From positions 2,534-66,533 of the forward strand of contig CACHEF010000006.1 in NCBI GenBank assembly GCA_902578775.1: 64,000 nucleotides of DNA, in the 5' to 3' direction. The notes beneath the pieces were generated by a model. It saw nothing but the letters and a program-made list of their open reading frames with translations, had not been told where the DNA came from and did no database searches. Below are positions 10,641-18,165 of this stretch, one piece after another. A program made the position numbers and the translations under genes. Each line of letters begins with the position of its first letter. The first letter of the stretch is position 1. Source of the stretch: an uncultured Pelagibacteraceae bacterium (lineage in GTDB: Bacteria > Pseudomonadota > Alphaproteobacteria > Pelagibacterales > Pelagibacteraceae).

Positions 10641-11419
10641 TGGTTCAATTAAGTTTACCTAAAGATTCTAAAGTTAAAAAAGGTAAATATTTCAAAGATA
10701 AATCTGGCTCGAAAAATATAAAGAAAGTTAATGTTTATAGGTGGGACCCTTCAATAGAAGAAAATCCAAGAATAGATACATATGAAGTTGATATGGATAA
10801 TTGTCCATCTAAAGTTCTCGATGTTTTAAATAAAATTAAAAATGAAATAGATCCAACTTTAGCTTATAGAAGATCTTGTGCTCATGGAGTTTGCGGATCT
10901 TGTGCTATGAATATGGGAGGAAAAAATGGATTAGCATGTACAACACCTCATTCTGAAATTAAGGGGGACATTGATATTTATCCATTGCCACATTTAAAAG
11001 TAAAAAAAGATTTGATCGGTGATTTAGATGGACTTTACAAACAATATAAATCAATAGAACCATGGTTAAAGTCAAATTCAAAATCTGAAAATGCAGAGAT
11101 TTATCAATCTAAAGAAGATAGAGCCAAGTTAGATGGGGCTTATGAGTGTATAATGTGTGCTTGTTGTTCAACCTCATGCCCAAGTTATTGGTGGAATGGT
11201 GATAAGTATTTAGGTCCAGCAGTTTTACTTCAAGCCTATAGATGGATTATAGATAGTAGAGATGAAGAGAGAGAGGCGAGATTAAAAAAAGTAGCAGATG
11301 AATTAAAACTCTATAGATGTCATACGATATTGAATTGTACAAGCGCATGTCCTAAAGGATTGAATCCCGCAAAAGCAATAGCGGAAATAAAAAAAATGTT
11401 AGCAACAGCTAGTCTTTAA
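10640..11419 (+). CDS. sdhB: Succinate dehydrogenase iron-sulfur subunit
   Basis: [27 protein letters not shown] and [12 protein letters not shown]e-S motifs. Confidence 0.98.
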
Positions 11420-12170
11420 AAAGAACTTTTCTTAAATTATTTGCTGCAGATAACATGATTGACAAAATTTTTTTTAAATCATTTATATCTTTTCTACTTT
11501 TTGCGGTATGGGTAGATAAACAAAAACATAATTCCTTATTTTGATTAAAAATTGGGACAGAAACTCCAACCATTCCATTAAACCACTCTTCATCATCAAA
11601 AGCGTATCCTTGATTTTTAATTTTTTTTAATTCTTTTTTAAATTGTGAAATTTCTGTTATCGTATTTTTTGCAGTTTTAGGTGTTTTGATATTTTTAAAT
11701 ATTTGAATGACCTTTTCTTCATTAATTGATGAAAGATATAATTTTCCTGATGCAGAAGCATGTAAAGGAAGATGATCTCCTGCTTCTAAATTTAATTGCA
11801 TAGGCCAATGGAATTCTATTCTATCAAAATAAACAAGTTTAGTTCCAATAGGTATTGATAGACTAACTGTTTCTTCTATATCGTTAGTTAATTTTCGTAA
11901 ATATGATCTCCTCAAAGTAAAATTTGGTTCATAAGGTAAACTTTTTAAAATCAAATTTCTTATTTTTGGTCCAGGAAGGTATTTTTTTGAACTACTTGCT
12001 ACTAAATATTTTTCTTCACATAAAGTTTCGATATGTCGATAAATTGTTGGTAAGGGTATTTTTAATTTATGGGAAATTTTTTTCGCAGTGAAATTATCAG
12101 GATCAATCACAATTTCTTCAAGAATATTCAATATTCTTCTGGGAGATGTTCTGCTACTTATTTCTGTCAT
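11409..12170 (-). CDS. IclR-family transcriptional regulator
   Basis: N-terminal wHTH ([10 protein letters not shown]), [13 protein letters not shown] and [17 protein letters not shown] signatures. Confidence 0.93.
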
Positions 12171-12195
12171 TTTAAGTTAAATTTTTTTAAAAAAT

Positions 12196-16220: not shown

Positions 16221-16234
16221 AAGGAAAAAAAATT

Positions 16235-16804
16235 ATGTCTAAAGATTTTACATCTGTAGAGAGCTCACTAGATAAAAAGCTACCGCTTAGACACACATCT
16301 ATCACAAAAAAAATAGATAATTTAGTTTTACAGATTGGTGAAGTTTTTAATTGGCTATGGGTATTCTTGGTAATTGTTATCATCTTGAACGTAGTTTTAA
16401 GGTATGTTTTTAAAAATGGAATGATTGAATTAGAAGAACTACAATGGCATCTTTACTGTATTGGTTGGTTAGTTGGTTTATCTTCGACATACATAGTTGA
16501 TTCTCATGTAAGAGTAGATGTTTTAAGTGAGAGACTGAGTTATAGAAAAAAATTATGGTTTGAATTATTTGGTATTTTGATTTTATTTTTACCATTTGTA
16601 ATCCTGGTCCTTTATTATGCAGTTCCTTTTTTTGAATTATCATGGACAACAAGTGAAAGATCAACATCTGCAAATGGTTTACCTGCAAGATGGTTTGTAA
16701 AAGGTTTTTTAGTAATTAGTTTTTTCTTGTTATTAATTTCAGGCATATCAAGAATAACAAGAATAATAACTACACTTCGATTTGGATTAGAGGATAAAAA
16801 ATGA
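16235..16804 (+). CDS. dctQ: TRAP transporter small permease
   Basis: 4 TM helices, VVLRYVF, EELQWHL and HVRVDV motifs. Confidence 0.93.
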   Translation: MSKDFTSVESSLDKKLPLRHTSITKKIDNLVLQIGEVFNWLWVFLVIVIILNVVLRYVFKNGMIELEELQWHLYCIGWLVGLSSTYIVDSHVRVDVLSERLSYRKKLWFELFGILILFLPFVILVLYYAVPFFELSWTTSERSTSANGLPARWFVKGFLVISFFLLLISGISRITRIITTLRFGLEDKK

Positions 16805-18165
16805 TTTCATTAGTTACTGAATATTTTTTAGCAATTGCACTATTTTTTAGTTTTATAACATTAATATTTTATGGATTTCCTGTAGCTTGGACTATGGGTG
16901 GTTTAGGAGTTCTCTTTATATTTATATCAATGATTTCTGATAATTTATTTGACACTTTTTATGGTGTGGATTTCGGATTTGCTTCAATGGTGGTTTACCG
17001 GCTTTACGGTGTCATGGCTAACTGGGTTTTAGTTGCATTACCAATGTTTATTTTTATGGGAATAATGATGGATAAGTCCGGTATTGCAGAAGATCTGATG
17101 ACCGATCTATCTAAATTATTTGGTAAAACAAGAGGTGGACTTGCAATCTCAATTGTATTCATTGGAGTTTTGCTTGCTGCTTCCACAGGAATAATTGGTG
17201 CTGCAGTGGTATTACTCACAATTTTAGGTGTGCCATTAATGTTAAAGAATAAGTACAATCCAAATTTAGCATGCGGAGTAGTCTGTGCCACTGGAACACT
17301 AGGAATTTTAATTCCTCCTAGCATTATGCTCGTAATCATGGGAGATCAAGTTCGAATATCAGTTGGAGATTTGTTTATGGGAGCAGTATTTCCGGGTCTA
17401 TTACTTGGATTACTTTATACAATATTTATTGTTGTTTATGCTTATATGAACCCAAAAGCAGCTCCGTTACCAAAAGATGCTGAACCAGTAGATTTTAAAA
17501 TAGTTTTAAGGGTACTTAAATCTATAATACCACCAGCACTATTAATAGTAGCAGTTTTAGGAAGTATATTTATGGGGATAGCTACACCAACTGAAGCATC
17601 AGGGGTGGGAGCTTTGGGAGCATCTATATTGGCAATGATTAGAGGAAGATTGTCATTTTCAGATTTAAAAATTGTAATTAGAAAAACAACACATACTACA
17701 GCTTATATTTTTGCTCTTTTTGTTGGAGCAACTATGTTTGCATTAATTTTAAGAGGCTTAGGTGGTGATGAATTAATAGAGGGAGCTCTTAAAGCCTTAC
17801 CTTTTGGAACAAATGGAGTTGTAATTGTAGTTTTGTTTGTTGCATTCTTATTAGGGTTCTTCTTAGATTGGATTGAGATTACTTTAATTATTTTACCTTT
17901 TTTAGCACCTGTGATGGTTGATCTAGGTGTAGATTTGGTTTGGTTTATAGTAATGTTTGCAGTTGTTTTACAAACTTCATTCATAACTCCACCTGTAGGT
18001 TTTGCTTTATTTTATATGAAAGGTGTTGCACCTCAGGGTATTTCAATAACAAATATTTATAAGGGAATAATTCCATTTGTAATTCTTCAAGTAATAGCAG
18101 TTGCTATAGTATTTAATTTTCCTGAAATAGTTACTTGGTTACCAAAAGTTGCATACGGCCCATAA
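16801..18165 (+). CDS. dctM: TRAP transporter large permease
   Basis: ALPMFIFMG, GTLGILIPPS, ATPTEA and SFITPPVGFALFY motifs. Confidence 0.94.
   Translation: MISLVTEYFLAIALFFSFITLIFYGFPVAWTMGGLGVLFIFISMISDNLFDTFYGVDFGFASMVVYRLYGVMANWVLVALPMFIFMGIMMDKSGIAEDLMTDLSKLFGKTRGGLAISIVFIGVLLAASTGIIGAAVVLLTILGVPLMLKNKYNPNLACGVVCATGTLGILIPPSIMLVIMGDQVRISVGDLFMGAVFPGLLLGLLYTIFIVVYAYMNPKAAPLPKDAEPVDFKIVLRVLKSIIPPALLIVAVLGSIFMGIATPTEASGVGALGASILAMIRGRLSFSDLKIVIRKTTHTTAYIFALFVGATMFALILRGLGGDELIEGALKALPFGTNGVVIVVLFVAFLLGFFLDWIEITLIILPFLAPVMVDLGVDLVWFIVMFAVVLQTSFITPPVGFALFYMKGVAPQGISITNIYKGIIPFVILQVIAVAIVFNFPEIVTWLPKVAYGP

What the first reader, a model, noticed from the sequence alone, without database searches (positions are those of the whole stretch)
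11409..18165. Candidate 3-hydroxypropionate (small hydroxy-acid) uptake and oxidation island inside the TCA cluster
Seen: a self-contained divergon splits sdhB from mdh-suc, with iclR and mmsA leftward and Fe-ADH, dctP, dctQ and dctM rightward. It lies about 4 kb from dmdA. Established: an Fe-ADH (DddB) and a CoA-acylating semialdehyde dehydrogenase (DddC) accompany dddD in Marinomonas and are assigned to 3-HP -> malonate semialdehyde -> acetyl-CoA. That locus uses a BCCT carrier and a LysR regulator. TakP-like DctPs bind monocarboxylates. Inference: this is a lyase-free version with a TRAP importer and IclR control, letting this SAR11 lineage scavenge 3-HP released by DMSP/acrylate degraders and feed acetyl-CoA to the flanking TCA enzymes. 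3-Hydroxyisobutyrate (to propionyl-CoA) is the main alternative substrate. This is the best candidate for an undescribed system in the window.
Basis: partly seen in the sequence, partly recalled or inferred. Interest (0 to 1): 0.82.

Follow-up and report, generated by a model that had tools for sequence, protein, structure and literature searches.

The report
SAR11 hydroxyethyl-acid uptake and oxidation cassette
About one in twenty sampled Pelagibacter (SAR11) species has replaced its usual mmsA gene with a self-regulated cassette that likely imports a small HO-CH2-CH2-X acid and likely burns it to acetyl-CoA; comparative evidence leans slightly towards a sulfur-bearing substrate rather than the 3-hydroxypropionate first proposed, which, if true, would add an undescribed organosulfur route.

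Summary
The six genes are real (IclR, MMSDH above the TIGR01722 cut-off, Fe-ADH, TakP-type TRAP); a seventh small gene (18183-18626) belongs with them. The cassette does not split an intact TCA cluster. It replaces a resident mmsA (22 of 22 non-carrier loci read) and occurs in 7 of 150 other Pelagibacter genomes. A palindrome at 13749-13775 tracks iclR in 70 of 70 informative SAR11 loci. Import, alcohol oxidation and MMSDH conversion to acyl-CoA is well supported. The substrate is untested. For 3-HP: the ADH and IclR are sisters of ddd-cluster proteins. Against: a different DctP clade sits with DddA- and DddB-type enzymes; 0 of 37 non-SAR11 groups have DMSP genes nearby; 8 of 37 have an isethionate-dehydrogenase-type GMC or a TauZ-like exporter (0 of 55 control loci), once with its own operator copy. 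I favour a sulfur isostere, probably 2-hydroxyethanesulfinate (0.42), over 3-HP (0.36). The scan found this cassette before on two other genomes and read it as 3-HP; a word search found no note on the sulfur link.

The parts
11409..12170 (-). IclR-family regulator; overlaps the 3' end of sdhB by 11 bp
   Evidence: PF01614; own clade 100/100, sister to ddd-linked IclRs 92/92, IseR-type next
12196..13689 (-). CoA-acylating (methyl)malonate-semialdehyde dehydrogenase; replaces the core Pelagibacter mmsA (56-60% identical)
   Evidence: TIGR01722 659.8 bits vs cut-off 448.5; PDB 4ZZ7 hit E 8e-183; active-site motifs match those of the other MMSDHs aligned
13749..13775 (.). Conserved palindrome, predicted IclR operator, in the divergent promoter
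   Evidence: Present in 60/60 SAR11 loci with iclR and 0/10 without; 32.6 bits, next best site in G000 14.9; position
13789..13818 (+). Candidate sigma-70 promoter for adh-dctPQM just downstream of the operator
   Evidence: Consensus match 9/12 (the scan as a whole is at chance level); a TTGAC word follows the operator in most intergenic sequences listed
13846..15033 (+). Iron-containing alcohol dehydrogenase (TTG start); distinct clade sister to DddB-type enzymes
   Evidence: PF00465/PF25137; no NCBIfam equivalog passed; tree; 48-51% to dddD-linked Fe-ADHs
15090..16154 (+). TakP-type TRAP solute-binding protein (R177, E156, E214, Q240)
   Evidence: Best PDB hits 2HZK, 4YIC, 5CM6, 4PET; clade 100/100 among hydroxy-monocarboxylate-context DctPs; sites
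16194..16208 (.). Hairpin between dctP and dctQ
   Evidence: Terminator-like match; function not shown
16235..16804 (+). DctQ small TRAP permease
   Evidence: PF04290
16801..18165 (+). DctM large TRAP permease
   Evidence: TIGR00786 291.7 vs cut-off 268.45
18183..18626 (+). 147-aa protein with no family hit; part of the SAR11 version of the insert
   Evidence: No Pfam/NCBIfam hit; follows dctM in SAR11 carrier loci; 2/2 carriers, 0/3 non-carriers

Best explanation
This is a co-inherited cassette with a predicted IclR operator that replaced the resident mmsA, and it likely imports a two-carbon alcohol bearing a sulfur oxyanion (probably 2-hydroxyethanesulfinate, the sulfinate isostere of 3-hydroxypropionate; less likely isethionate), likely oxidises it to the aldehyde and likely converts that to acetyl-CoA plus sulfite. 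Shown: gene content, replacement of core mmsA, the operator-iclR link, and repeated recruitment of IseJ-type dehydrogenases and TauZ-like exporters in non-SAR11 carriers. Inferred: DctP binds the anion through R177 and a metal site; the Fe-ADH (or an IseJ-type GMC where it is swapped in) makes sulfinoacetaldehyde; MMSDH releases bisulfite as it releases CO2/bicarbonate from malonate semialdehyde, or acylates acetaldehyde after spontaneous desulfination; sulfite leaves by a YeiH/TauZ protein or is oxidised (G000 has a YeiH gene and apr-like genes on C1). The MMSDH would still handle malonate semialdehyde, which would explain why it can replace the core gene. The backbone (import, alcohol oxidation, MMSDH to acyl-CoA) is about 0.85 likely whatever the substrate.
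For: (1) GMCs beside the cassette (L058, L084, L087, L135) are 53-70% identical to xsc/iseKLM-linked GMCs and 45-50% to dddD-linked ones; one clade with the DddA type is rejected, p-AU 2e-16. All 4 GMCs in dddD loci are the other type. In L058 and L084 the GMC stands where the Fe-ADH is missing; for L084 no close Fe-ADH was found elsewhere in its genome, and both genomes hold a second IseJ-type copy. In L135 it has its own operator copy. (2) YeiH/TauZ-like genes follow the cassette co-directionally in 5 groups and are not one clade; L076's is 79% identical to an xsc-linked TauZ. Either gene: 8 of 37 groups vs 0 of 33 sister-TRAP loci and 0 of 22 ddd loci (Fisher p 4e-4, kin not independent), and 0 of 16 DddB-like alphaproteobacterial loci. 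(3) MMSDH is in 22 of 37 groups, from at least 4 lineages; xsc is in 0 of 37, so MMSDH, not Xsc, looks like the next step. TauZ follows mmsA in L076, L132, L134/135 as it follows xsc in L223 and L226. (4) A separate DctP clade carries DddA- or DddB-type enzymes. (5) A SAR11 TRAP binder, SAR11_0864, binds isethionate, assayed with Ca2+ (PMC11485210, passages). YeiH is tied to sulfite resistance (PMC12880088, listing and one passage). Spontaneous desulfination of the hypotaurine-derived aldehyde: Felux et al. 2013, title only.
Against: No SAR11 carrier locus has TauZ or IseJ in the cassette; 29 of 37 non-SAR11 groups show neither (several are short contigs). I found no report of 2-hydroxyethanesulfinate as a marine metabolite or of MMSDH acting on a sulfur aldehyde. 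ADH and IclR are sisters of ddd-cluster proteins, and the DctP sits among lactate, 3-hydroxybutyrate and mmsAB contexts. The MMSDH active site is unchanged. I did not see the sequences of the genetically tested 3-HP dehydrogenases (C. sphaeroides Gmor, Halomonas DddA, 61% identical to each other). The primer for Gmor printed in PMC12632250 encodes a start that resembles roseobacter IseJ starts more than DddA-type starts; this is five residues only, but if Gmor is IseJ-type the GMC argument fails. L084's GMC is unresolved in the tree. No separate operator was found before any TauZ.
Confidence: 0.42

Rival explanations
1. One reading: TRAP import of 3-hydroxypropionate, Fe-ADH oxidation to malonate semialdehyde, MMSDH to acetyl-CoA + CO2 (lyase-free dddBC module).
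For: Fe-ADH 48-51% to the Fe-ADH of 12 of 19 dddD loci and 47-52% to relatives beside MMSDH in acrylate-type clusters. IclR sister to ddd-linked IclRs. Canonical MMSDH that displaced the core one. DctP among hydroxy-monocarboxylate contexts. The 3-HP route through GMC + MMSDH is genetically supported in C. sphaeroides and C. necator (PMC12632250 section 7; PMC6572756 passages).
Against: Does not explain 5 TauZ-like and 4 IseJ-type recruitments, or the operator before L135's IseJ-type gene. A different DctP clade has DddA/DddB partners. No dddD, acuI or dmdA near any of 37 groups. Long stems separate the cassette ADH (0.6) and IclR (1.18) from ddd types.
Confidence: 0.36
2. Broad HO-CH2-CH2-X scavenger: it takes up both 3-HP and isethionate; MMSDH handles the 3-HP arm, Xsc elsewhere in the genome handles sulfoacetaldehyde, TauZ exports sulfite.
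For: Accounts for MMSDH, IseJ-type and TauZ genes with known chemistry only. Xsc-like genes are in 5 of 5 carrier genomes tested and in G000. phnY-phnA (phosphonate analogue) lie beside the cassette in one group, phnA near a second.
Against: xsc is never adjacent (0 of 37). In 10 whole genomes the exact operator pattern hit only the cassette (8 genomes) or nothing (2). G000 already has a GMC + TRAP locus of the isethionate type on C1.
Confidence: 0.1
3. 3-Hydroxyisobutyrate import and oxidation to propionyl-CoA.
For: MMSDH accepts methylmalonate semialdehyde (family definition, TIGR01722); G000 has a PrpE-like gene.
Against: The mmsA-mmsB-linked DctP (L283) is in another clade; no valine-pathway genes seen beside the cassette; sulfur-gene links unexplained.
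Confidence: 0.04
4. Another alcohol-bearing anion, e.g. 3-hydroxypropanesulfonate, glycerate or 2-hydroxyethylphosphonate.
For: ADH residues H153 and R170 align with His and Arg of 1,3-propanediol oxidoreductase 3BFJ; phnY/phnA neighbours.
Against: Needs extra enzymes not in the cassette; the phn genes are convergent and come from one lineage.
Confidence: 0.08

Closest known systems
dddD-dddT-dddB-dddC-(iclR)-dddR clusters (Marinomonas MWYL1 type; SAR92 dddTBC-iclR-lysR)
   Same: Fe-ADH of the sister clade (48-51%), MMSDH, IclR of the sister clade; alcohol to semialdehyde to acetyl-CoA logic (PMC9327192 and PMC10746254, passages)
   Different: No DddD, no BCCT, no LysR; TRAP importer; own palindrome, not found in ddd loci; ADH pocket motifs differ; TauZ and IseJ-type partners
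Isethionate cluster iseR-iseKLM-iseJ with xsc, pta, tauZ (Ruegeria pomeroyi SPO2355-2359; Paracoccus)
   Same: IclR + TRAP + alcohol dehydrogenase + (in some carriers) IseJ-type GMC and TauZ; same layout
   Different: MMSDH stands where Xsc-Pta would; the Ruegeria-type binding protein is a different family (no NCBIfam hit); usual dehydrogenase is an Fe-ADH
3-HP oxidation by HpdH/Gmor + MmsA/DddC (Cupriavidus necator, Cereibacter sphaeroides)
   Same: MMSDH step to acetyl-CoA
   Different: LysR control, GMC enzyme; no TRAP importer for 3-HP in the parts read
TakP-type monocarboxylate TRAP systems (R. sphaeroides TakP 2HZK; lactate binders; R. pomeroyi hbtABC for 3-hydroxybutyrate)
   Same: Family; Arg177 and Glu214 kept; nearest relatives lie in lactate and 3-hydroxybutyrate contexts

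Membership tests
CoA-acylating MMSDH (TIGR01722) | Profile score above curated cut-off; catalytic Cys and two Arg motifs | tested here: met
   659.8 vs 448.5; motifs
ddd (DMSP cleavage) cluster | DMSP lyase gene (dddD) in the cluster | tested here: not met
   0 of 37 non-SAR11 groups; G000 has only short, weak CaiB-type hits
ddd (DMSP cleavage) cluster | BCCT carrier DddT and LysR DddR | tested here: not met
   TRAP and IclR instead
DddB | Falls inside the clade of dddD-linked Fe-ADHs | tested here: not met
   Separate clade 100/100, sister to them at 84/70 support
DddB | Oxidises 3-HP with NAD+ | not testable with these tools
   Needs an assay
Isethionate (ise) cluster | IseJ-type GMC dehydrogenase | tested here: not met
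   Not in this window's cassette; present beside 4 of 37 non-SAR11 groups
Isethionate (ise) cluster | Xsc adjacent or in the regulon | tested here: not met
   0 of 37 adjacent; operator pattern not found outside the cassette in 10 genomes
TakP-type TRAP solute-binding proteins | Closest solved structures are TakP-type; conserved Arg and metal-site acids | tested here: met
   the roles of the TakP positions are recalled, not from a call
Putative 3-HP TRAP clade (DctP beside DddA- or DddB-type enzymes) | DctP falls in that clade | tested here: not met
   41-45% identity; separate clade
IclR regulon | Palindrome co-occurs with the regulator | tested here: met
   60/60 with iclR, 0/10 without; binding itself untested

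The most novel reading that the evidence does not exclude
The cassette is an undescribed organosulfur pathway in which an ordinary-looking malonate-semialdehyde dehydrogenase cleaves a C-S bond: 2-hydroxyethanesulfinate (or isethionate) to aldehyde to acetyl-CoA + sulfite (or sulfate), without Xsc. It would point to an unrecognised sulfur compound in marine dissolved organic matter that some SAR11 lineages, roseobacters and sponge symbionts take up.
Probability: 0.3. Interest if true: 0.85.

Novelty: new variant of a known kind. Interest (0 to 1): 0.62.

Why it matters
SAR11 transporters define which dissolved compounds the most abundant marine bacteria remove. This binding protein had no close match (best 31%) in 60 other sampled Pelagibacter genomes, yet is 83-99% identical across 47 SAR11 genomes and its silent sites are more alike across species than those of its flanks. 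One ligand screen would name the compound. A 3-HP result would be a TRAP importer for a DMSP breakdown product, which my searches did not find described. A sulfinate or sulfonate result would add a new sulfite-releasing reaction. The operator and cultured carriers (HIMB4, HIMB1709, Roseovarius aestuarii, Defluviimonas aestuarii) make either directly testable. The comparison also points to a second TRAP clade that fits 3-HP better.

Tried and rejected
AlphaFold of DctP from a single sequence gave mean pLDDT 36.7 and was not used. Metatranscriptome contigs from 4 seawater runs cover the region, including dctP; contigs cannot show strand or level, so this is not used as evidence. The idea that ADH His153/Arg170 mark an anion-specific pocket was dropped: they align with His and Arg in 1,3-propanediol oxidoreductase. 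The first idea that the GMC swap mirrors DddA/DddB was dropped. A wider regulon was not found, apart from extra sites within loci L135 and L086. Random draws added few carriers: 3 of 401 Rhodobacteraceae including the centre, 0 of 300 other Alphaproteobacteria, 0 of 10, none new among 150. The IclR homologue search returned only SAR11 copies in its top 120. C. sphaeroides chromosome 2 was not in the annotated collections, and Felux 2013 was not held. Papers PMC3338564 and PMC12992908 gave no locus tag for dddA. The promoter scan was at chance level overall (34 vs 32 in shuffles). Ten literature searches found no description of this cassette or of a 3-HP TRAP transporter; subscription papers are not covered.
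Full report
OBSERVATION. The ORF list and family scans confirm iclR 11409-12170(-), mmsA 12196-13689(-), Fe-ADH 13846-15033(+), dctP 15090-16154, dctQ 16235-16804 and dctM 16801-18165. A 147-aa gene with no family hit (18183-18626) follows, then mdh. MmsA passes TIGR01722 (659.8 vs 448.5). The Fe-ADH passes no equivalog. DctP's closest solved structures are TakP-type binders. 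GC content matches the flanks. dmdA ends 4.3 kb upstream.

DISTRIBUTION AND ORIGIN. A genome scan with DctP returned 80 loci (the best 80 of 111): 47 Pelagibacterales at 83-99%, 28 other marine alpha- and gammaproteobacteria at 70-83%, and 5 at 49-50%. In the SAR11 loci the cassette lies between sdhB and mdh wherever the flanks are visible. It is a minority trait. None of 60 same-genus genomes in one draw had a DctP above 31%. In a second draw 140 of 151 genomes had exactly one MMSDH match: 8 of the cassette type (88-100%, including G000) and 132 of a core type (56-60%). An earlier scan note (e1-5478801) suggested a swap, and I tested it. In 22 of 22 non-carrier loci read (the best-scoring 22 of 132) the order is sdhB>mmsA>mdh. 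So the cassette replaced a resident mmsA. The 147-aa gene was in 2 of 2 carrier and 0 of 3 non-carrier complete genomes. Four-fold degenerate sites of dctP are 72% identical (median, 45 loci) against 42-46% for sdhA, sdhB, mdh and sucC. This suggests recent exchange between species, though codon selection could contribute. Carriers L051, L054 and L194 lack the dmd genes at this site, so the cassette is not tied to dmdA.

REGULATION. A 27-bp palindrome lies at 13749-13775. Among SAR11 loci with both sdhB and mmsA visible, 60 of 60 with iclR have it and 0 of 10 without iclR do. It is the only strong site in G000 (32.6 bits, next 14.9). An exact-pattern search of 10 carrier genomes hit only the cassette in 8 and nothing in 2. 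Extra copies mark regulon members: in L086 between a displaced MMSDH and ADH, and in L135 just upstream of a GMC oxidoreductase. That IclR binds it is inferred.

EVIDENCE FOR THE BACKBONE. After merging loci at 90% dctP DNA identity, the 64 non-SAR11 loci form 37 groups. MMSDH is in the locus in 22 of 37, drawn from at least four lineages. The Fe-ADH's best plasmid relatives (47-52%) lie mostly beside MMSDH: in a dddD-BCCT-ADH-MMSDH-IclR-LysR cluster, in acrylate-type CoA clusters and in a GntP-ADH-MMSDH-IclR cluster; three of the eight regions read had no adjacent MMSDH. In 19 dddD loci from Pseudomonadales, 12 carry an Fe-ADH 48-51% identical to ours. The cassette ADHs form their own clade, sister to these, and the IclRs likewise. 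DctP's nearest relatives sit with 3-hydroxybutyrate, acetoacetate, mmsAB and lactate genes (those labels are my reading of the sequences and contexts). Import of a small hydroxy anion, oxidation to an aldehyde and MMSDH conversion to an acyl-CoA is therefore about 0.85 likely.

EVIDENCE ON THE SUBSTRATE. First, another DctP clade (91/100 support, 41-45% to ours) is linked to both dehydrogenase types seen in dddD clusters: the DddA-type GMC (L233, L234, L236) and a DddB-like ADH with MMSDH (L306, L308). That clade fits 3-HP better. Second, the four GMCs beside our cassette are 53-70% identical to GMCs in xsc/iseKLM clusters and 45-50% to dddD-linked ones; grouping them with the DddA type is rejected (p-AU 2e-16). 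Three fall in supported clades with ise-linked enzymes; L084 is unresolved. The ise label rests on context and the R. pomeroyi iseR-iseMLK-iseJ annotation (PMC4334477, passages). In L058 and L084 the GMC replaces the Fe-ADH and is a second copy in its genome. Third, YeiH/TauZ-like genes follow the cassette in five groups, from several branches, one 79% identical to an xsc-linked TauZ. Together 8 of 37 groups carry one of these genes, against 0 of 33 sister-TRAP loci, 0 of 22 ddd loci and 0 of 16 DddB-like loci, three of them short. No group had dddD, acuI, dmdA or xsc nearby.

MECHANISM. The layout matches the isethionate cluster, with MMSDH where Xsc-Pta stands. 3-HP, isethionate and 2-hydroxyethanesulfinate share the HO-CH2-CH2-X shape. 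From general chemistry (not from a call), MMSDH's C-C cleavage has a ready C-S analogue for a sulfinate but none known for a sulfonate. The aldehyde from hypotaurine is reported to desulfinate spontaneously to acetaldehyde (Felux 2013, title only). One substrate, the sulfinate, then accounts for a carboxylate-like DctP, a DddB-like or IseJ-like dehydrogenase, an unchanged MMSDH that can also do the core job, and a sulfite exporter. All substrate steps are inferred.

WHAT SPEAKS AGAINST IT. No SAR11 cassette holds TauZ or IseJ, and most non-SAR11 groups show neither. I found no paper on this compound in seawater or on such an MMSDH reaction. I could not obtain the tested 3-HP dehydrogenases Gmor and Halomonas DddA. 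The published Gmor primer encodes a short start that looks more IseJ-like than DddA-like, which would undercut the GMC argument. Against that, the best plasmid matches to a dddD-linked GMC lie next to dddD-like genes in rhizobia. Related loci are not independent, so the p-values overstate. I put a sulfur oxyanion at 0.42, 3-HP at 0.36, both at 0.10, 3-hydroxyisobutyrate at 0.04 and others at 0.08.

LITERATURE SEEN. Passages: PMC10130141, PMC11485210, PMC9327192, PMC8437039, PMC6572756, PMC4334477, PMC10746254, PMC5864207, PMC11685487, PMC3338564, PMC12880088. PMC12632250: passages, section 7 and one supplement passage. PMC13335735: abstract and sections 8 and 12. PMC12214560: a reference entry only. 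PMC12992908: term search with no hits. Supplements of the other papers were not read and could list this cassette or locus tags for dddA. TakP residue roles and the TauZ/SuyZ names are recalled.

VERDICT. A real, intact, co-inherited and regulated accessory cassette; a new variant of known alcohol-to-acyl-CoA modules. Its 3-HP substrate is a close second to a sulfur isostere. The scan had noted the cassette on two other genomes; a word search found no note on the sulfur link. Interest 0.62.

Noticed in passing
L233:6914-8014, L234:7017-8207, L236:6722-8029, L306:11075-12154, L308:3033-4118: A TakP-type DctP clade linked to DddA-type GMCs or to DddB-like Fe-ADH + MMSDH; a better candidate 3-hydroxypropionate TRAP importer.
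   Followed up: partly
L221:1883-9939 (Pseudomonas sp. MPC6 plasmid): Sdh-like four-gene set + fumarate-hydratase-like pair + MMSDH + YeiH, near a sulfite oxidase. Could be a 3-sulfopropionate route to malonate semialdehyde + sulfite; its YeiH is 70% identical to the one after the L085 cassette.
   Followed up: partly
L219:4246-18974 (Cupriavidus campinensis plasmid): Choline-sulfatase-family gene + GMC + YeiH + two IclR + MFS + the same divergent MMSDH type as in some cassettes (77%); suggests a sulfate-ester pathway ending in MMSDH.
   Followed up: partly
L101-L122; window 1872-11419: Core Pelagibacter mmsA sits inside the sdh-mdh operon. In the window the dmdC-, dmdB-like, hydrolase and dmdA genes lie just upstream; MmsA might take malonate semialdehyde from the MMPA route, with the alpha/beta hydrolase (5261-6034) as a possible thioesterase. 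Speculative.
   Followed up: no
G000 contig C1:176252-194400: Sulfur cluster: apr-like genes, YeiH, a suyB-like gene, xsc, and a GMC divergent from a TakP-type TRAP; likely the isethionate/DHPS locus (gene names partly from my reading of the sequences).
   Followed up: partly
L051, L194 (no iclR, no Fe-ADH); L029, L034, L046, L054, L168, L184, L195 (no iclR): SAR11 carriers have lost iclR together with its operator, and twice the ADH too, which suggests streamlining to constitutive expression.
   Followed up: partly
L073, L075, L083 (11241-14221); L057:1-1539: phnY-phnA convergent with the TRAP genes in one group; phnA with a LysR near the cassette in another.
   Followed up: partly
L231, L279-L286, L289: Sister TRAP clade beside CoA-transferase, sigma-54 regulator and genes that look like PHB-oligomer or acetoacetate metabolism; candidate 3-hydroxybutyrate importers.
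   Followed up: no
window:27360-30530: GC falls to about 0.22 after lpd, where methyltransferase-, glycosyltransferase- and epimerase-like genes begin; looks like a cell-surface variable region.
   Followed up: no
L022:11045-12337, L025, L029, L051, L054: Extra genes inserted between dctM, the 147-aa gene, mdh or sucC in some carriers; the right end of the site is variable.
   Followed up: no
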